Shown: positions 3,901-63,931 of the stretch, in pieces
Numbering within the stretch: position 1 is the stretch's first letter
How the letters are laid out: the number at the start of each line of letters is the position of its first letter
Virus record (IMG/VR): IMGVR_UViG_3300022824_000016
Coordinates: 14,588 to 78,587 of that record
From: a virus
Lineage: Duplodnaviria; Caudoviricetes
Reading direction: 5' to 3' (one strand)
Length of the DNA stretch: 64,000 nt
The notes under the pieces: model-generated
Databases searched by the model: none
The model's input: the letters and a program-made list of their open reading frames with translations, nothing else
What the model was told of the DNA's origin: nothing
Made by a program: the position numbers and the translations under genes

Positions 3901-4208
3901 TTTTGGAATTTAAAGATCTGGCCTTTTTCGTCGCAGACCCAGGCATAGCGACTTTCAAAATAGCCGGAGTCCAGACCGCAAAGTGCTTGCTCGTTCTCGA
4001 TCCAGCGCCAGATTTCCTTTTGACGTTTCTGCGTGATGGGACGTTGCAACGTGACATAAGAGGACCGGGAGTTGCTCTCGATCTTAACCAGAGAATCAAT
4101 GTACTGCTTAAATTCCTGTACCTGTTCCAGTGAATGATAAACAGGCATCCAGCCTTCGAGGGCTGCGAATTCGTCCAGATTGCGTAATACAATCCGTTCG
4201 CTATACAT
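942..4208 (-). CDS. terL: Terminase large subunit, interrupted by an intein
   Basis: ATPase motif ELMILKARQVGVTT, Walker-B-like IHVSEL after the intein, C-terminal nuclease motifs (GIDTADG, HDDRV). Confidence 0.85.
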   Translation of the reverse strand: MYSERIVLRNLDEFAALEGWMPVYHSLEQVQEFKQYIDSLVKIESNSRSSYVTLQRPITQKRQKEIWRWIENEQALCGLDSGYFESRYAWVCDEKGQIFKFQNRLSQKIFDGVIAGFDEKQVSIELMILKARQVGVTTKTALKFLHRLLFVPHTQAVMASVQSDKSELIGRILDTAYNRCPWWLVPRRLPKGAYDNGSVLSIQSGMQATGIAQGWTPTCLVPGTPVRVANGGVKAIEDLALGDRVLTHDGRLAAVKCSFKTSRHGEPTRILKLWGCYQPLESTLDHRIWTPDGWCEAEDLGVGDFVRYPVREIRAENDGEPLQKMLRGKIDAAHAIEFELTYSPVVAYLAGLYLAEGSCHESGIGKLNKKPYLSEVTFTVHRREAIRTETAIKAVLGEDQYIHTKNHGENGSQVCISCAWLARWLAENFGRKYDKHVPDWIWTAGRDFCLYLLKGYLDGDGHCEKNSNHVIAPCICEAITLQMRDLVASLGFGWASIYHQAAMQSPWGGKKRETWKLVMVGMCGYRYRMALNFEHIPSHEKARHWHYNEDGSAIDVKIEKVDEGFSESFYDVEINDAAHSFTTLQCSVHNCIHVSELADIPKPEKVIEEGLLRATHSSRNLFMVFEGTGGGNTGWLANTWRSAKADWPKGQSRLCPVFIPWAMVPDLYPEPDWVRKFPVPADFMRKRQEVTRKHVQRCELYIRNTPYLANVVGADWRMPIEQQWFWEFNYLQACKNHTQKIWLAQMAADDFEALTGVHDSVFDLETIQEIENHVYEVEGDTKERKKPVQAYAITGDSIDDGFEPDESIIDYDKDRIRILWNSDRGQQYKWVLIPLLPVNEEIETETFDKFLVYEEPKAGYSYSCGIDTADGLGKEDEDRTCVSMTRNRFGDEFDYQVAELTSNRINSAQIVGFAACMAAWYGENTQDSRGVKFCVEQIGRPGDTCQHQLKLMGFHWHHVPRRYDSKKIKDDSGKKQGWFSNVWSVPILMTRFTEAVNGGWYRPSSKWLIEELKTLERHAAAGRISKMEHRSGQHDDRVRAAAQSFFTAHDFDILADRAQKRYALPQEKMPPLVLKSCSVNKVSVGGMN
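2439..3554 (-). mobile_element. Intein with LAGLIDADG homing endonuclease (372 aa) in terL
   Basis: Starts CLVPGTPV (Cys219), ends VHN with a +1 Cys; LAGLIDADG-like motifs YLAGLYLAEGS and LKGYLDGDG. Confidence 0.9.
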
Positions 4209-4518
4209 TGATCTCCGGTTCGAAGAACGTCAGAATCTATGCCTTCACGGCAGAAGTCTTTGCGGCCCGCTTGCCGAGCGTTTTGATTCGTGGCGTCATC
4301 TTCTTCAATTGAACGAGTTTGGTCGAGTAGATCTGTTTGCCCTTTTTGGTTCTTGCCATGGCTTTCCTCCCTGGAACTGACTGCAAAACAGAAATGGCCC
4401 AAGCCATTTCTGACTTGAGCCATTGCTGATTCCCTGAAGGGGGGCATGTGTCTCGACTGTTGCTTTACATCTATACCCAATCTTTTTTTGCGTCAAGTCT
4501 TAGTTATAAAGCAACAAA

Positions 4519-21564: not shown

Positions 21565-22326
21565 ATGGCAAAGCTGCATGAACTGTTGGCCGTGCTGAGC
21601 AACCTGAGCGGCCAGGCTACCAAAAAGCGCACAGACCTGAAGACGACTTTTGACAAAAAGCGGCATCTCTTTGAGGAAACGCGCAAGACATTTACGTCCA
21701 ATGATGAGCAGGAAAAACCACAGGTTGAAGAGCAGAAGGATATTCAGTCGACTGTGATCGGTGAAATCTCCTGGATCAGACCCGCTCTGGCAAAGGCGCT
21801 GGATGTGGCTTACCAGATAGACGTTGCCAATACTGAGGCCAAAGCTGATGTGGTAACGGAAGATGGCGATATTTTGCTGAAAGAAGTACCAGCAACCACA
21901 TTGCTGCAGCTGGAAAAGCGCGTGGCTGAATGGAAGGATTTGATTCAGGCCATTCCTACCCTTGATCCAGCGAAGGGCTTTCAGCCGGATGAAGCGCGAG
22001 GAAAAGGCTATTACAAAGCACGCGATGTGACGAAGCCACGCACAAAGAAGGTACCAGACGTGATTACGCTGGCACCGGCTACCAAAGAGCATCCGGCTCA
22101 GACTCAGTTGATTTCGGTGGATAAGCCAGTTGGCACGATTTTGGAGCAGGAATGGAGTTCTCTGATTACGCCTGCAATCAAATCAGATCTACTGGATCGC
22201 GTGGAAACATTGCTGCGCGCTGTGTCCAAGGCTCGTTCCAAGGCCAATGACCATGCGGTTGACACGCACGACAAAAAGATTGGGGCGGAGTTGCTGGACT
22301 TTGTTTTTCAGCCGCTCGGTTCCTAA
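21565..22326 (+). CDS. Conserved coiled-coil phage protein directly upstream of the ncRNA cluster
   Basis: ATG at 21565 with GGAGGA RBS; upstream TATAAT adjacent to a palindrome copy at 21486. Confidence 0.75.
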   Translation: MAKLHELLAVLSNLSGQATKKRTDLKTTFDKKRHLFEETRKTFTSNDEQEKPQVEEQKDIQSTVIGEISWIRPALAKALDVAYQIDVANTEAKADVVTEDGDILLKEVPATTLLQLEKRVAEWKDLIQAIPTLDPAKGFQPDEARGKGYYKARDVTKPRTKKVPDVITLAPATKEHPAQTQLISVDKPVGTILEQEWSSLITPAIKSDLLDRVETLLRAVSKARSKANDHAVDTHDKKIGAELLDFVFQPLGS

Positions 22327-22329
22327 AAG

Positions 22330-22426
22330 TTTGGGTGGGGCCGAAAGGTCCGATCCAGGCTCAGACTCAGACTTGTACGCAGACTCAACTCCGGCATCTG
22401 AAAGCCGGATCAGACTTTCACCCAAA
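22330..22426 (+). ncRNA. Candidate Y-RNA-like ncRNA
   Basis: Ends pair (TTTGGGTG/CACCCAAA); GCCGAAAG and GGTCCGA on the 5' strand; four CAGACT; internal TCCGGC/GCCGGA hairpin. Confidence 0.5.
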
Positions 22427-22592
22427 GGTTTATCGCAGTAAACGATAGCGAACCGGGCGAAACTTACGAACGGAAGGCGCGGGTTCGAATCCCGCAGGGC
22501 GCCCCAAAAAAATATGCGCCCTTGGCTCAGGGGTAGAGCGTCTGCATCAGATTAAAAGTTTCGGGCTGGTAAGCAAGGCGTGCTGCACAACC
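22427..22592 (+). ncRNA. Circularly permuted tRNA mimic (YrlA-like)
   Basis: T arm (22479-95), then acceptor strands AGGGCGC/GCGCCCT joined by a loop, then D arm (22525-39); closed by CGAAACTT/AAGTTTCG. Confidence 0.7.
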
Positions 22593-22665
22593 AATCGACT
22601 AGCTCAGTTGGTAGAGCGTCTGACTTGTAATCAGAATGTCGCCGGTTCAAATCCGGTGTCGATAT
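22593..22665 (+). tRNA. tRNA-Thr(UGU)-like, 1-72 mismatch, no encoded CCA
   Basis: Cloverleaf with anticodon arm TCTGA CTTGTAA TCAGA. Confidence 0.7.
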
Positions 22666-22670
22666 TCGTA

Positions 22671-22707
22671 GGGCCGTCCGCGCGGAAGCGGGCGGCCCAT
22701 TAATTTT
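22671..22707 (+). terminator. GC-rich hairpin terminator after the ncRNA cluster
   Basis: GGGCCGTCCG/CGGGCGGCCC stem followed by an AT/T run. Confidence 0.6.
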
Positions 22708-50414: not shown

Positions 50415-50876
50415 ATTGCATCTCTGCGATGCACTCTATGTTCATTGTGCCTTTGAATCAGCCGGAGTGATGGCACTCAAGCATGTTGCATCTGTGCGAT
50501 GCACTTTTGGTTCAGTGTGCCTGCGCTAAACGCCGCGATGGCTGTCATCAAATGGTTGCATCTGCCCGATGCACTGTATGTTCTTTATGCCAAGAAACTG
50601 GGACAGAGAACATGTCTTGGAGGAAATGTTGCATCTGTCCGATGCACTGTAAGTTCATTGTGCCCGATGCCAATCGGTAAGCGTGCAGCCAGCAAGGGGT
50701 TGCATCTATGCGATGCACTTTTGTTCATTGTGCCTCGTTCCGTGATGTGATATGGCGGCACGCACTTCGTTGCATCTATGCGATGCACTTTATGTTCATT
50801 GTGCCGGGGCTACCAATGGCGAATGCGCTTAGTGACGTGGTTGCATCTATGTGATGCACTCTTGATTCAGTAGGCT
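50415..50876 (-). CRISPR. Satellite array 1: 7 degenerate repeats, 6 spacers (33-36 nt)
   Basis: Repeats at 50415, 50485, 50555, 50628, 50699, 50769 and 50840, all variants of the main repeat in reverse orientation. Confidence 0.95.
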
Positions 50877-52622: not shown

Positions 52623-52919
52623 ATTGTATTTGTCTGATGCGCTCTTGGGTCAGCGTGCCAAACGACAGTTCCGTTATGCAATCCTGGAATCGACGTTGCA
52701 CCTGCTCGGTGCACTCCTGGTTCAATGGGTAAATCAAAAAGATATTAATCGCCCGAAATTTTCAGTTGCATCTATCCGATGCACTGTTGAATCGGTGTGC
52801 GTGGCTTATTGAAAACAAACAGGCATCATTCTACGTTGTTGCATCTGTGCGATGCACTTTATGTTCATTGTGCCATCCTAGTCTTAATGTTCAGCGGAGC
52901 GGAGGTCCGTTGCATCTGT
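52623..52919 (-). CRISPR. Satellite array 2: 4 full repeats (1 perfect, 3 degenerate) plus 1 truncated, 4 spacers
   Basis: Repeats at 52623, 52695, 52765, 52838 (perfect) and 52909 (11 nt). Confidence 0.9.
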
Positions 52920-57679: not shown

Positions 57680-57976
57680 TCAAGAAACAGCTGCTTCCAG
57701 TTCAGCTTTTTCTTTTTCCAATTCAGCCCGGCGCTCTGCCGGCGTCTTGAGGCTCTGCAATTGTGCCTCAATCTGCTTGCGCCGCGCCTGCCGCTTATCA
57801 TCAACCTTCGACGCTATCTCGCGCCGCAACAGTTTGAGTTGGGTATCAACGAATTCGGGTTCGTCTACTTTCTGCGCCTCATACTCCGCACGCAGAATTC
57901 TGCCAAATGCAGCCAGAGCAACCATGTCGTCCACATTCAGACGATCTTTATTAAAGTTCTGAAAATCACTCAGCAC
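57680..57976 (-). CDS. Coiled-coil protein coupled to the TROVE-like gene
   Basis: 98-aa ORF overlapping the upstream stop. Confidence 0.7.
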   Translation of the reverse strand: MLSDFQNFNKDRLNVDDMVALAAFGRILRAEYEAQKVDEPEFVDTQLKLLRREIASKVDDKRQARRKQIEAQLQSLKTPAERRAELEKEKAELEAAVS

Positions 57977-59463
57977 GCTACTGCCTCCTTTCCTACGCTT
58001 TCAAAAACGTCCTTCAACTTCAACAGCTTTGTGGCCATCACTTCGTCGCACAATGAATACCGATTGGTCCTCATAGTGCTGACAAGATTTGGCAGGGAAT
58101 AAAAATCAACGCTTTCGTCAATATCGAAAACCTGCATGTCGATACCGGCAGATTGCATCAAATGGGTAAACGCGTACGATTTGTTTCCACAGTGATACAG
58201 ATATACCGTCGGCTCTTTCCCCGCAAAGGCCGCATATTGCGGATACACATGATGGAAGAACGGTGTCGAGTTCTCTCCACCGTCAGAGACAATGGCAATT
58301 CCGTCGATCTCTTCTTTGGTCTCCAGCATCCGCTGTAATCCACAACCGATCGAGGTTCCTCCATTGGCACAAATGTACTGTGTTGCCTTCTGGATCGCGT
58401 CCAGTGGCGCTCCGGACACGTCAATGGTCTGCGGCTGGGTATCGAAGAAGACCAGCCACACCCTGCCCTTCACCATTTTGGCCAGGGTTCCTGCAATCCG
58501 CCTGGCAATTTCGATGGCCCGCGCCATCGAACCGGACTTATCGCCCAGCACCAGCCAGTTGCCTTCCACACCCATACTCAGCAACTGACGATCCTGCAAA
58601 CCGCGCAGCTTTTCCTTCAAGCCTTCATCGTCGATGGCTTCAGCTGCACGTGTCGTCTTCAACACGTTTTTTTTGCTCGATGCGGCCTTCTTCAGTGCCT
58701 CTTCAAAAGCTCCGCGCAATGCCGGATTGGTCTTCACACCCAGCTTCTCCAGCATTTTGGTGTTGGTCACCACTTCGGTCGGTGACATTTGCTGAATTAG
58801 CGCCAATACCACATTCGGATCCTTCATCTTTTCGCCCAGCGCACCGTTGGCCACAATAAATGGAATTCTGCGACTGATAATCTCGCTGGCCGCTCCCACC
58901 GGACTCATATCTTTCAGGTGTGTTACCACCTCAAAAACCGATCCAGTTGGCAATGGTGCTCTGGTCTTGTCCAGATGACGCCCATAAAGTACAACATTGA
59001 TGCGATCCTTTTCCGGTCGCGCGTGTGCCAAAGAATACAATTCCTTCAACACCTTGTGATGCTGCAGGGCCAGCCGGTCCCAATGCCGGTCATTTTCCTT
59101 TTCGCGCAGCCATGTCCTCACCAAATGGCGAACGGTGCCCATTCTGCTGGCGTTTCCAAAGGCTTCACGACCGGCAAAGCGAAATGCGCGCAACAGCTCC
59201 CGCGGTCCCAGCAGCGCCAAATGCGCCAGAGAGTTTTCCCTTAATTCCGGTGGAAACGCAGGTTCGGCCAGCGTGATTACCGGCAATGCAACCTTTGCAT
59301 CGCGTATTTGTCCGTTGATCCTGTCCCATGCAATCAGATGTGCCAGAAACTCGGGTTCCTGTTTGGCCGCCGTCATTCCAACCGCCAGATAATCCACAAG
59401 CTTGCCGTGCGGCGACTTCGACAACTGAGAAAGAATGTTGTTCTTTGTCAACCCGGTTTCCAT
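57970..59463 (-). CDS. Ro60/TROVE-like helical domain plus vWA domain protein
   Basis: MIDAS GDKSGSM, GGTS and VSDGGEN; N-terminal EPEFLAHLIAWDR...IRD helical repeats. Confidence 0.65.
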   Translation of the reverse strand: METGLTKNNILSQLSKSPHGKLVDYLAVGMTAAKQEPEFLAHLIAWDRINGQIRDAKVALPVITLAEPAFPPELRENSLAHLALLGPRELLRAFRFAGREAFGNASRMGTVRHLVRTWLREKENDRHWDRLALQHHKVLKELYSLAHARPEKDRINVVLYGRHLDKTRAPLPTGSVFEVVTHLKDMSPVGAASEIISRRIPFIVANGALGEKMKDPNVVLALIQQMSPTEVVTNTKMLEKLGVKTNPALRGAFEEALKKAASSKKNVLKTTRAAEAIDDEGLKEKLRGLQDRQLLSMGVEGNWLVLGDKSGSMARAIEIARRIAGTLAKMVKGRVWLVFFDTQPQTIDVSGAPLDAIQKATQYICANGGTSIGCGLQRMLETKEEIDGIAIVSDGGENSTPFFHHVYPQYAAFAGKEPTVYLYHCGNKSYAFTHLMQSAGIDMQVFDIDESVDFYSLPNLVSTMRTNRYSLCDEVMATKLLKLKDVFESVGKEAVAC

Positions 59464-60156: not shown

Positions 60157-60267
60157 TGGAGGGCATCGGATTCGAACCGATTTAGAGCACCCCGAAAGGT
60201 ACTCTTTTAGCCATGTAGCCGATTCAGGTAGCCATTGCTGGCAAGTCAGAAACGGTTTCTGCCCCCC
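60157..60267 (-). ncRNA. tRNA-like RNA with an Ala-type acceptor (G3:U70, A73) and aberrant core
   Basis: GGGGGGC/GCCCTCC-A; T arm ATCGG TTCGAAT CCGAT; long variable-arm hairpin; no normal D or anticodon arm. Confidence 0.55.
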
Positions 60268-60340: not shown

Positions 60341-60460
60341 TGGCTGGGGGAGACGGGAGTTGAACCCGCTTGGCAGTCTCCATAGGACTGTGCATGTATA
60401 CGCTCACAGTAGCTGACTGAGCAGCAAGTCGCATGCGTTTCACGTTTTGCTACTCCCCCA
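60341..60460 (-). ncRNA. tRNA-like RNA with an 8-bp acceptor stem, G73-CCA and expanded anticodon arm
   Basis: TGGGGGAG/CTCCCCCA; class II D-arm; variable arm CAGTC/GACTG; T arm GCGGG TTCAACT CCCGT. Confidence 0.6.
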
Positions 60461-60497
60461 AAACTATTCCCCGCAAGTCGTTCGGCAATCCCTTTCG

Positions 60498-60570
60498 GGA
60501 TCAGGGTTGGAATCGAACCAACTACCCTCAGATTACAAATCTGATGCTCTACCAAATGAGCTACATGTAA
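60498..60570 (-). tRNA. tRNA-Thr(UGU)-like with a broken acceptor stem
   Basis: Intact D, anticodon (TCAGA TTTGTAA TCTGA) and T arms; acceptor strands do not pair. Confidence 0.55.
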
Positions 60571-60649
60571 GCCGCACAGTAACGAGGAAACTCAAACGCA
60601 ACGCAATTCAATATACACCTTTTTGAAATGCTGCCACAAAATTATTTTT

Positions 60650-63620: not shown

Positions 63621-63931
63621 ATTGCATCTACCCGATGCACTTTTGGTTCATTGTGCCGCAATAAAGAAGTAATTGCTGCCTGCTGTAAGAGTTGCATCTA
63701 TGCGATGCACTGTCCATTCATTATGTTGCAAAGTAAGAGCGGCGAACCAGCGCCATGTAGTTGTTGCATCTATGCGATGCACTTTATGTTCATTGTGCCT
63801 GGGATTTCCTAGCATCATCGTGTTGGGCCTTACAGCGTTGCATCTATGCGATGCACTGTATGTTCTGTGTACCGTTCAACGCTAATCTCACGCTCCTTGA
63901 CATCAAGGGTTGCATCTGTGCGATGCACTTT
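63621..63931 (-). CRISPR. Satellite array 3: 5 degenerate repeats, 4 spacers (33-37 nt)
   Basis: Repeats at 63621, 63691, 63763, 63837 and 63909 (last keeps only 23 nt of the repeat). Confidence 0.93.

What the first reader, a model, noticed from the sequence alone, without database searches (positions are those of the whole stretch)
22427..22592. Circularly permuted tRNA mimic (T arm, closed acceptor stem, D arm)
Seen: GCGGG-TTCGAAT-CCCGC, then AGGGCGC-C-CCA-A6-TAT-GCGCCCT (perfect 7-bp acceptor joined by a loop containing CCA), then TG-GCTC-AGGGGTA-GAGC; CGGA/TCTG forms the anticodon-stem remnant, which continues into a long closing stem. Known: bacterial YrlA Y RNAs have this permuted tRNA-like module and partner Ro60/Rsr. 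Inference: a phage YrlA-like RNA whose partner may be the TROVE-vWA protein 35 kb away, or the co-transcribed upstream protein (21565-22326).
Basis: partly seen in the sequence, partly recalled or inferred. Interest (0 to 1): 0.75.

Follow-up and report, generated by a model that had tools for sequence, protein, structure and literature searches.

The report
Phage tRNA-mimic RNA beside DUF7873
The back-to-front tRNA look-alike is real, and it belongs to a folded RNA that follows one unstudied phage gene (DUF7873) in hundreds of phages and bacteria, so it more likely marks an undescribed RNA-protein pair than a classic Ro60/Y-RNA system.

Summary
At 22427-22592 (+) a long stem closes a circularly permuted tRNA shape: a 4-bp anticodon-like stem, T arm, 7-bp acceptor stem capped by C-CCA-A6-UAU, U8, and D arm.

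It is domain 2 of a roughly 265-nt RNA (22330-22592). This RNA starts 3 nt after the DUF7873 gene (21565-22326) and runs straight into tRNA-Thr and a terminator.

The gene-RNA pair is conserved:
- My covariance model finds the module just downstream of the gene in 68 of 68 viral loci and in 69 of 80 independent bacterial-genome loci.
- Covariation is overwhelming.
- No other neighbouring gene is conserved.

Domain 1 and the internal loop of domain 2 carry enriched U-N-A-G-R-C hexamers.

It resembles YrlA in architecture but fails YrlA membership. It scores 33 bits against a cut-off of 69, has no conserved Rsr-binding motif, and lies 35 kb from the Ro60 gene on the other strand. That Ro60 gene is a true Ro60 by fold, and it has its own tRNA-like RNA candidate beside it.

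There is no sign of a tracrRNA role.

The most likely function is an RNA-protein particle with DUF7873, matured by RNase P. This is inferred, not shown.

This scan has found the same system on other DNA many times.

The parts
21565..22326 (+). DUF7873 gene (253 aa from the ATG at 21565; the longer ORF from 21478 is probably not used)
   Evidence: Pfam PF25283, E 8.7e-67. Relatives are 240-260 aa and start at this Met. The AF2 model has pLDDT 85.8 and no fold match.
22330..22426 (+). RNA domain 1. An outer stem (UUUGGGUG with CACCCAAA) encloses a GNRA-capped hairpin, a second hairpin and four CAGACU hexamers (22362, 22368, 22380, 22411). In many relatives this position holds a first permuted tRNA-like module.
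   Evidence: Fold. The homologous domains and their hexamer rows are listed. Hexamers are enriched 17- to 31-fold.
22427..22592 (+). RNA domain 2, which is the finding: a long closing stem around a circularly permuted tRNA-shaped core
   Evidence: Rfam YrlA scores 33.3 bits, below its cut-off. Model R1 scores 91.5 bits, but the window is in the seed.
22459..22465 (+). 5' strand of the inner closing helix (GAAACUU), pairing with 22556-22562
   Evidence: Compensatory changes in close relatives: GAAACC/GGUUUU, GAGCC/GGCUC, GGAAUC/GGUUCC, GAGACU/AGUUUC.
22471..22474 (+). 3' strand of the 4-bp anticodon-like stem (CGGA), followed by a 4-nt variable region AGGC with C48
   Evidence: Pairs with 22541-22544. 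This helix was not used for selection and covaries. C at the last variable position in 48 of 52 sequences.
22479..22495 (+). T arm (GCGGG, UUCGAAU, CCCGC)
22496..22522 (+). Closed 7-bp acceptor stem: 3' strand 22496-22502, discriminator C 22503, CCA 22504-22506, linker A6-UAU 22507-22515, 5' strand 22516-22522. The predicted RNase P site lies between 22515 and 22516.
   Evidence: In the viral relatives, CCA follows a variable discriminator base: C in 52 of 52, C in 48 of 52, A in 49 of 52. U precedes the 5' strand in 33 of 52. The cleavage itself is inferred.
22523..22539 (+). U8-G9, then the D arm (GCUC, AGGGGUA, GAGC)
   Evidence: U8 is invariant in 52 of 52. D stem covariation is shown.
22541..22552 (+). 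5' strand of the anticodon-like stem (UCUG), then C and AUCAGAU, one more copy of the U-N-A-R-R hexamer motif, on the 3' side of the internal loop
   Evidence: Column counts give A35, U41, Y45, A37, R51, R44 of 52. The same motif is found in independent copies.
22556..22562 (+). 3' strand of the inner closing helix (AAGUUUC)
22593..22665 (+). tRNA-Thr (UGU) abutting the RNA. Its RNase P site would define the RNA's 3' end.
   Evidence: ARAGORN and Rfam, 63.9 bits. The same arrangement is present in L003/L020 and L021.
22671..22698 (+). Intrinsic-terminator-like hairpin that ends the unit
   Evidence: No terminator-like or sigma-70-like site lies between the gene and the RNA.
57970..59463 (-). 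Divergent Ro60/Rsr-fold protein (helical repeat ring plus vWA). It is context and a rival partner, not a demonstrated part of the system.
   Evidence: AF2 model with pLDDT 78.6. Foldseek matches 9kop, 9l5y (Thermus phage Ro60), 2nvo and 1yvp over about 500 columns, E 8e-10 to 1e-6.

Best explanation
The element is domain 2 of a roughly 265-nt structured non-coding RNA (22330-22592). The RNA is encoded directly after the DUF7873 gene and is most likely co-transcribed with it. It is one member of a very widespread gene-RNA cassette of phages and prophages.

Shown here:
- The RNA has a tRNA-shaped core in permuted order, with the tRNA tertiary-contact bases kept (U8, the D-loop GG, C48, the T loop).
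- The core sits on a 4-bp anticodon-like stem, an asymmetric internal loop and a long closing helix.
- The RNA carries rows of U-N-A-G-R-C hexamers.
- Its position after DUF7873 is conserved while all other neighbours change.

Inferred:
- DUF7873 binds the RNA, probably through the hexamer rows and the internal loop, forming an RNA-protein particle.
- The tRNA-shaped head is handled by tRNA enzymes. RNase P would cut between U22515 and G22516, and again at 22592/22593 in front of tRNA-Thr.
- Exonucleases would trim the upstream piece back to CCA22506.
- This would leave a two-piece, CCA-ended tRNA mimic held together by the acceptor, anticodon-like and closing helices.
- The particle would then act like Ro60/Y RNA, as a tether or decoy that presents a tRNA look-alike to a tRNA-binding factor of the host or the phage. 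Which factor that is remains unknown.
For: Structure. RNAalifold recovers the four helices, with compensatory changes at all 20 pairs. In 71 copies from bacterial genomes not used to build the model, 96.9% of cells pair and the covariation score is 0.904 against 0.212 in shuffles. The closing helix covaries in the close clade.

Linkage to DUF7873.
- Rfam-level hits follow the gene at 32-85% protein identity.
- R1 hits lie on the + strand within a few hundred bases downstream in 68 of 68 viral loci and 69 of 80 independent genome loci.
- All-against-all comparison of flanking ORFs finds no other conserved neighbour.
- The cassette is present in cultured phages: Gordonia Ronaldo, Ralstonia phiRSL1 and Klebsiella KpLz-2_45.
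- The gap from stop codon to RNA is 3 nt, with no terminator between them and a terminator after tRNA-Thr.

Processing. CCA follows a variable discriminator in 48-52 of 52 viral relatives, and U is preferred at -1. The published precedent is M. smegmatis YrlA, which has a 7-bp acceptor, is cut by RNase P in vitro, and is cleaved and CCA-added in vivo (PMC4201824).

Hexamers. AGGCTC occurs 37 times against 1.2 expected, and TCAGAC 19 against 1.0.
Against: - There are no transcript, binding or processing data of any kind.
- DUF7873 has no recognisable RNA-binding fold or any fold match, no fused forms and no family annotation.
- N-CCA is kept in only 21 of 71 copies in the broad bacterial set, and some clades have 3-5-bp closed acceptor stems. 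RNase P maturation to a CCA end therefore cannot be the family-wide rule.
- Eleven of 80 genome loci gave no downstream hit.
- TROVE genes lie next to the cassette in three loci, so a link to Ro60 biology is not excluded.
- A later check recorded in this scan priced the claim 'protein binds the RNA and works without Ro60' at only 22 in 100.
Confidence: 0.5

Rival explanations
1. It is a Ro60-bound Y RNA (a YrlA relative). The phage's own Ro60-fold protein (57970-59463), or the host's Rsr, binds it, and DUF7873 is a bystander or a third subunit.
For: - The architecture matches, and the best Rfam match is YrlA.
- The phage does encode a Ro60-fold protein.
- The window itself contains GCCGAAAG and GGUCCGA at 22340-22353.
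- TROVE genes lie within a few kb of the cassette in L180, L181 and L182.
- 22 of 50 DUF7873-bearing genomes have a TROVE gene.
Against: - The score is 33.3 bits against a gathering score of 69.
- The putative Rsr motif is at chance level in the family (6 of 53, 3.9 expected). The GGUCCGA stretch is replaced by GGCUCGA, UGCCCAA, GGCCCGA or GGGUCAA in close relatives, where a GNRA hairpin covaries instead.
- Ro60 is 35 kb away on the other strand, whereas published YrlA genes lie within 4 kb on the same strand (PMC4201824).
- No TROVE hit is found in 5 near-complete viral records or in 3 complete cultured phages.
- In 301 Planctomycetota genomes, 18 have DUF7873, 20 have TROVE and 2 have both, against 1.2 expected.
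- Where Ro60 is adjacent, it has its own separate tRNA-like RNA. The same appears true in this window.
Confidence: 0.15
2. It is a purely cis-acting 3' UTR element of the DUF7873 message. The tRNA-like fold recruits RNase P or blocks 3' exonucleases to set the mRNA's end and stability, and it has no function of its own.
For: It starts 3 nt after the stop codon with no promoter-like site of its own. It is always on the gene's strand and downstream. tRNA-like structures that direct RNase P cleavage of longer transcripts are established biology (from my own knowledge).
Against: A 260-400-nt RNA with two domains is far more than an end-forming signal needs. So are rows of conserved hexamers, preserved tRNA tertiary-contact bases and often two tRNA-like modules.
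Confidence: 0.15
3. It is a true circularly permuted tRNA gene, as in the red alga Cyanidioschyzon merolae. The transcript would be cut and rejoined in the anticodon region and opened at the acceptor to give a working tRNA.
For: The 3' half precedes the 5' half, there is a perfect 7-bp acceptor, and NCCA is encoded. After the anticodon-stem strand comes A-U-Y-A-R-R, which reads like U33 plus a Leu-type anticodon plus R37.
Against: - The anticodon-like stem has only 4 pairs, with a purine-purine mismatch at the fifth position.
- The junction is a 5-nt/11-nt internal loop, not a bulge-helix-bulge.
- The 'anticodon' is one more copy of a hexamer repeated many times elsewhere in the RNA.
- The body is class I, not Leu-like.
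- Distant relatives lose CCA and shorten the acceptor to 3-5 bp.
- Bacteria have no splicing endonuclease of the required kind (from my own knowledge).
Confidence: 0.05
4. It is an accessory RNA, such as a tracrRNA, of the Cas12m-like CRISPR system that starts 400 nt downstream.
For: It lies immediately upstream of cas12-cas4-cas1 and the array.
Against: The longest complementarity to the repeat is 8 nt, as in shuffled sequence. A terminator and a separate gap lie between it and cas12. The cassette occurs in hundreds of phages and bacteria with unrelated neighbours. No stray repeats flank it here.
Confidence: 0.03

Closest known systems
YrlA (Y RNA-like A; Rfam RF02553), partner of bacterial and phage Ro60/Rsr (Chen et al. 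2014, PMC4201824)
   Same: A circularly permuted tRNA-like domain (T arm, loop-capped acceptor-like stem, D arm) on a long stem formed by the RNA's two ends. It occurs in phages, and tRNA tertiary-contact bases are kept. The M. smegmatis form has a 7-bp acceptor that RNase P cuts.
   Different: - It scores below half of the family's gathering score.
- It has no conserved GNCGAAN0-1G motif.
- It is not next to rsr; its constant neighbour is DUF7873.
- CCA is encoded rather than added.
- It has hexamer-repeat rows and an extra 5' domain, and is about 265-400 nt long rather than about 110 nt.
Two-piece tmRNA from circularly permuted ssrA genes (alpha-proteobacteria, some cyanobacteria; recalled from my own knowledge)
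   Same: The gene order is T arm, acceptor 3' strand, CCA, a short intervening segment, then acceptor 5' strand. Maturation removes the segment and leaves two base-paired pieces.
   Different: ARAGORN calls no tmRNA here. There is no G3-U70 pair, no tag reading frame and no pseudoknots. A full D stem is present.
Circularly permuted tRNA genes of Cyanidioschyzon merolae and split tRNA genes of Nanoarchaeum (recalled from my own knowledge)
   Same: The 3' half is encoded before the 5' half, and the leader and trailer pair into a long helix.
   Different: There is no bulge-helix-bulge, no restorable anticodon arm and no known bacterial enzyme set for the rejoining. Relatives lose the features a working tRNA needs.
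TRAP- or HutP-type proteins that read rows of NAG triplets at fixed spacing (recalled from my own knowledge)
   Same: Rows of N-A-G triplets with 3-nt spacers (U-N-A-G-R-C, period 6) lie in single-stranded parts of the RNA. This is a pattern typical of sites for a repeated or oligomeric RNA-binding protein.
   Different: No TRAP or HutP relative is involved. The DUF7873 model (helices plus three beta-hairpins) matches neither fold. This is a resemblance of pattern only.

Membership tests
YrlA (Rfam RF02553) | Reaches the family's curated gathering score | tested here: not met
   33.3 bits against 69. It is absent from the gathering-threshold scan. Relatives score 25-33 bits.
YrlA (Rfam RF02553) | Permuted tRNA-like domain (T arm, capped acceptor-like stem, D arm) closed by a stem of the 5' and 3' ends | tested here: met
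YrlA (Rfam RF02553) | GNCGAAN0-1G motif near the 5' end (the proposed Rsr contact) | tested here: not met
   The window has GCCGAAAG at 22340-22347, but it sits in a GNRA hairpin loop 139 nt upstream of the T arm. Across the family the motif occurs in 6 of 53 sequences against 3.9 expected.
YrlA (Rfam RF02553) | Encoded within about 4 kb of the Ro60 gene, on the same strand | tested here: not met
   The Ro60-fold gene is at 57970-59463 on the minus strand, 35 kb away.
YrlA (Rfam RF02553) | Bound by Ro60/Rsr in cells | not testable with these tools
   This needs immunoprecipitation.
DUF7873-linked tRNA-mimic RNA (not in Rfam 15; recognised repeatedly in this scan) | Lies directly downstream of a DUF7873 gene on the same strand and ends at a terminator or tRNA | tested here: met
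   The same holds in 68 of 68 viral and 69 of 80 genome loci.
DUF7873-linked tRNA-mimic RNA (not in Rfam 15; recognised repeatedly in this scan) | Rows of U-N-A-G-R-C hexamers in domain 1 and in the internal loop of the tRNA-like domain | tested here: met
   CAGACU four times at 22362-22416, and AUCAGAU at 22546-22552. Family enrichment is 17- to 31-fold.
Circularly permuted tRNA gene | A complete anticodon arm that can be restored across a bulge-helix-bulge junction | tested here: not met
   The stem has 4 bp with a mismatch at the fifth pair, and the junction is a 5-nt/11-nt internal loop.
Two-piece tmRNA | tmRNA call with tag peptide; G3-U70 alanine identity pair | tested here: not met
   ARAGORN reports no tmRNA. 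The 3:70 pair is G-C or C-G in nearly all sequences.
tracrRNA of the adjacent type V system | An anti-repeat complementary to the CRISPR repeat | tested here: not met
   The longest match is 8 nt, equal to shuffled controls.
Ro60/TROVE (for the protein at 57970-59463) | TROVE sequence profile (PF05731) | tested here: not met
   No hit at E up to 10 in the whole record, no PDB sequence hit, and only a weak VWA_CoxE match.
Ro60/TROVE (for the protein at 57970-59463) | Helical-repeat ring followed by a vWA domain, matching solved Ro60 structures over the full length | tested here: met
   Foldseek probability 1.00, E 8e-10 to 1e-6, about 500 aligned columns against 9kop, 9l5y, 9nen, 2nvo and 1yvp.

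The most novel reading that the evidence does not exclude
DUF7873 and this RNA form a Ro60-independent particle, a second and much more widespread class of tRNA-mimic RNA-protein machine in phages. RNase P and exonucleases turn its tRNA-shaped head into a two-piece, CCA-ended molecule. This molecule is either charged like a tRNA or captures a tRNA-handling factor, for instance to blunt host defences that attack tRNA ends.
Probability: 0.3. Interest if true: 0.85.

Novelty: new variant of a known kind. Interest (0 to 1): 0.68.

Why it matters
tRNA-mimic Y RNAs are so far known only as partners of Ro60. Here the same RNA design is tied to a different, wholly uncharacterised protein. That protein has about 2,600 sequence clusters. 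It occurs in at least 581 bacterial species genomes across many phyla, in 437 viral contigs and in cultured phages of Klebsiella, Ralstonia, Gordonia, Rhizobium and Vibrio.

If the pair is a particle, it is one of the commonest unstudied RNA-protein systems of phages, and the cultured phages make it directly testable.

For annotation, the RNA is missing from Rfam 15, and at least one GenBank record calls a protein gene over it.

This window adds three useful points:
- a one-module form fused to a tRNA gene;
- a phage that carries both this cassette and a separate Ro60 gene with its own RNA candidate, which argues that the two systems are distinct;
- a position directly upstream of a phage CRISPR locus.

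Tried and rejected
- tracrRNA role: no anti-repeat beyond chance and no stray repeats near the cassette.
- Decayed tandem tRNA pair, the known false positive of YrlA searches: rejected because of the covarying closing helix and the conserved position.
- Leu anticodon reading of A-U-Y-A-R-R: rejected once the same hexamer proved to be repeated throughout domain 1.
- The GGUCCGA Ro60-type helix in domain 1: not conserved; a GNRA hairpin covaries there instead.
- Function of DUF7873: no hit in PHROGs, PADLOC, NCBIfam or PDB sequences. There was no fold match by Foldseek against PDB or BFVD, or by VIA-align (best Z 7.7, on helical hairpins only). The ESM Atlas returns only DUF7873 clusters. No longer fused forms were found, which is weak evidence. 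The profile search finds only uniform stand-alone proteins of 240-260 aa.
- Literature: no paper holds 'DUF7873', and none links permuted tRNAs with bacteriophages.
- Searching 12 cassette-bearing records with a profile of the window's Ro60-like protein found nothing. The tool warns that this blank is uninformative.
Wider gene context in the bacterial genomes was therefore read only for three regions fetched with the fetch from genomes.

Full report
**What is there.**
- T arm: GCGGG/UUCGAAU/CCCGC, 22479-22495.
- A perfect 7-bp acceptor stem whose two strands (22496-22502 and 22516-22522) are joined by C-CCA-A6-UAU.
- U8-G9, then the D arm GCUC/AGGGGUA/GAGC (22525-22539).
- CGGA (22471-22474) pairs with UCUG (22541-22544), where a tRNA would have its anticodon stem.
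- Beyond an internal loop (ACGAA on the 5' side, CAUCAGAUUAA on the 3' side), GAAACUU pairs with AAGUUUC, and further pairs run out to GGUU/AACC at the two ends.

ARAGORN does not call it. It does call a tRNA-Thr(UGU) that starts at the very next base, 22593. A strong terminator-like hairpin follows at 22671-22698. A strict search for T arm, closed 7-bp acceptor and D arm finds one such site in the whole window.

**Is it more than chance?** Folding energy alone is weak evidence (z -1.7). Relatives settle it. The upstream gene is a DUF7873 protein (PF25283, E 8.7e-67). I fetched viral contigs that encode its relatives. Rfam's YrlA model then hit a site 100-400 nt downstream of the gene in locus after locus, even at 32-37% protein identity. 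Reading those stretches showed one to three permuted tRNA-like modules in each.

An alignment of 54 modules gave an RNAalifold consensus of four helices, with compensatory changes at all 20 pairs. The T, acceptor and D helices had been used to pick the sequences. The 4-bp anticodon-like stem had not, and it covaries as well (CG 26, UA 7, GU 6, AU 4, GC 3 at its first pair).

I built a covariance model, R1, from 52 viral modules. I ran it on 80 bacterial-genome loci that had been fetched only through the protein.
- 69 of 80 loci have a hit at E of 1e-5 or better on the gene's strand, just downstream. Often there are two hits in tandem.
- On 71 of these independent copies, 96.9% of cells pair against 60.7% in shuffles.
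- The covariation score is 0.904 against 0.212, and no shuffle out of 500 reaches it. Sliding the partners by 1-3 columns drops the score to 0.18 or less.
- All 68 non-redundant viral loci have a strong hit in the same place.

**Anatomy of the whole RNA.** The finding is the second domain of a longer RNA that begins 3 nt after the DUF7873 stop codon.

Domain 1 (22330-22426) has an outer stem (UUUGGGUG with CACCCAAA), a GNRA-capped hairpin, a second hairpin and four copies of CAGACU. In relatives the same domain carries rows such as UCAGGC-UCAGGC-UUAGGU-UGAGGC. AGGCTC occurs 37 times against 1.2 expected, and TCAGAC 19 against 1.0. In many bacterial and some phage copies, domain 1 also holds a first permuted tRNA-like module, often with a Leu-type long D arm and a short capped acceptor. 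The window's clade has lost that module or never had it.

The stretch that follows the anticodon-like stem in domain 2 has the consensus A-U-Y-A-R-R-N-U. I first read this as U33 plus a leucine anticodon. It is better read as one or two further copies of the hexamer.

The tRNA tertiary-contact bases are kept: U8 in 52 of 52, the D-loop GG, C at the last variable position in 48 of 52, and the T loop.

In the viral relatives the acceptor cap begins with a variable discriminator followed by C (52 of 52), C (48 of 52), A (49 of 52). It usually ends in U just before the 5' strand (33 of 52).

In the broader bacterial set only 21 of 71 copies keep CCA. Some clades have 3-5-bp capped stems.

**Who is the partner?** An all-against-all comparison of every ORF within 1.5 kb in 160 loci finds only DUF7873 itself conserved. 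The gene and the RNA therefore travel as a two-part cassette.

DUF7873 is a large, uniform family:
- about 2,600 clusters at 50% identity, nearly all 240-260 aa;
- at least 581 species genomes from many phyla;
- 437 viral contigs;
- 75 cultured-phage records.

In Gordonia phage Ronaldo, Ralstonia phage phiRSL1 and Klebsiella phage KpLz-2_45 the RNA lies in an unannotated gap, or under small 'hypothetical protein' calls, just after the gene.

The protein's model is confident (pLDDT 85.8). It has long helices alternating with three beta-hairpins. The longest hairpin carries the invariant tip T-x-x-H-P-A-Q. Nothing in PDB or BFVD matches it. Binding of DUF7873 to the RNA is therefore an inference from linkage.

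**The Ro60 alternative.** Its model nevertheless matches solved Ro60/Rsr structures over the full length, with Foldseek E from 8e-10 to 1e-6, and the matches include a Thermus phage Ro60. So the phage does encode a divergent Ro60.

Several results argue against Ro60 as the regular partner:
- Canonical TROVE is found on 2 of 15 cassette-bearing viral records and on none of five that are at least 90% complete.
- It is found on none of the three complete cultured phages.
- In 301 Planctomycetota genomes, 18 carry DUF7873, 20 carry TROVE and 2 carry both, against 1.2 expected.
- The GNCGAAN0-1G motif that Chen et al. tie to Rsr binding is at chance level: 6 of 53 sequences, 3.9 expected.
- The window's GGUCCGA is not conserved in close relatives, where a GNRA hairpin covaries instead.

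On the other side, 22 of 50 cassette-bearing bacterial genomes have TROVE. In three loci a TROVE gene lies within a few kb. In two of them, L180 and L182, the Ro60 gene has its own separate R1- or YrlA-type RNA, and tRNA genes, beside it.

The window looks the same. About 1 kb upstream of the Ro60-fold gene, on its strand, lies a tRNA-like element with D, anticodon and T arms but no acceptor stem. A long stem of its flanks closes it. This is the layout described for Deinococcus Yrn1. The two systems thus seem related in style and sometimes co-resident, but distinct.

**CRISPR.** The cassette sits 400 nt upstream of a Cas12m-like gene, cas4, cas1 and an 11-repeat array. I found no anti-repeat, a terminator separates the units, and the cassette's neighbours differ everywhere else. 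I take the adjacency as incidental.

**How it most likely works.** The shown and inferred steps are set out under Best explanation. In short, the RNA is co-transcribed with the DUF7873 gene. The hexamer rows serve as the protein platform. The tRNA-shaped head is recognised by tRNA enzymes.

In this subfamily, RNase P would cut before G22516 and before tRNA-Thr, and the upstream piece would be trimmed to CCA. Three features are what a bacterial RNase P substrate needs (from my own knowledge): the encoded CCA directly after a 7-bp stem, the free choice of discriminator base, and the preferred U at -1. M. smegmatis YrlA is a published precedent.

CCA is not family-wide, so this maturation may be a subfamily trait. 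What the particle does afterwards is unknown. The candidates are tether, decoy or charged mimic.

**Standing.** This scan has recorded the same cassette many times on other DNA: 290 notes in at least 173 genomes. My analysis reached the same picture independently before I looked that up. A later check noted there priced the direct-binding claim low (22 in 100), and I keep my confidence moderate for that reason. I found no paper that names DUF7873 or describes this RNA.

Noticed in passing
window 60462-60612 (-): A tRNA-like element (Rfam tRNA model positions 7-64, 50.7 bits) has D, anticodon (UGU) and T arms but no acceptor stem. A long stem of its flanks closes it, and it has an extra GAAA-capped hairpin. 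It lies about 1 kb upstream of the Ro60-fold gene on the same strand, so it is a candidate Yrn1-type Y RNA for that protein. The fold z-score is -2.2.
   Followed up: partly
window 60345-60459 (-): A second odd tRNA-like gene: good acceptor, anticodon and T arms, but a 48-nt insertion where the D loop should be, and an AUG anticodon. A further lone T-arm-like hairpin lies at 60165-60181.
   Followed up: no
window 50415-50859 (-), 52765-52874 (-), 63638-63928 (-): Three further arrays of the same 37-nt CRISPR repeat family lie on the opposite strand from the cas genes, several with degenerate repeats. The phage therefore carries four arrays, not one.
   Followed up: partly
window 22593-22665 compared with L003 4038-4110: The tRNA fused to the RNA has anticodon UGU (Thr) here, but UCU (Arg) in an 85%-related phage. 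The anticodon switch sits in an otherwise closely similar gene. The window's copy also has an A1-A72 mismatch and no encoded CCA.
   Followed up: no
window 22338-22353: GCCGAAAG and GGUCCGA, which look like Ro60-binding motifs, sit in a hairpin (GGCC-GAAA-GGUC). That hairpin's stem covaries in relatives while the motif letters change (GGCUCGA, UGCCCAA, GGCCCGA, GGGUCAA). The Ro60-helix reading of domain 1 is therefore not supported by conservation.
   Followed up: yes
L183 3989-4198 (Gordonia phage Ronaldo, MH479925.1 gene 125): An annotated 'hypothetical protein' CDS overlaps the two tRNA-like modules found by R1 (3990-4087 and 4137-4263). It is probably a miscalled ORF over the RNA.
   Followed up: partly
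L182 5711-7921 (-) and L180 6809-7004 (-): In two Planctomycetota prophage-like regions, a Ro60 gene is preceded by its own permuted tRNA-like RNA and a cluster of up to about ten tRNA genes. A DUF7873 cassette lies a few kb away.
   Followed up: partly
L185 3858-3952 (Klebsiella phage KpLz-2_45): Module 1 of this jumbo phage's RNA has a Leu-type long D arm and an acceptor cap that begins A-CCA. This is the discriminator base that E. coli tRNA-Leu uses (from my own knowledge), which hints at mimicry of a particular tRNA.
   Followed up: no
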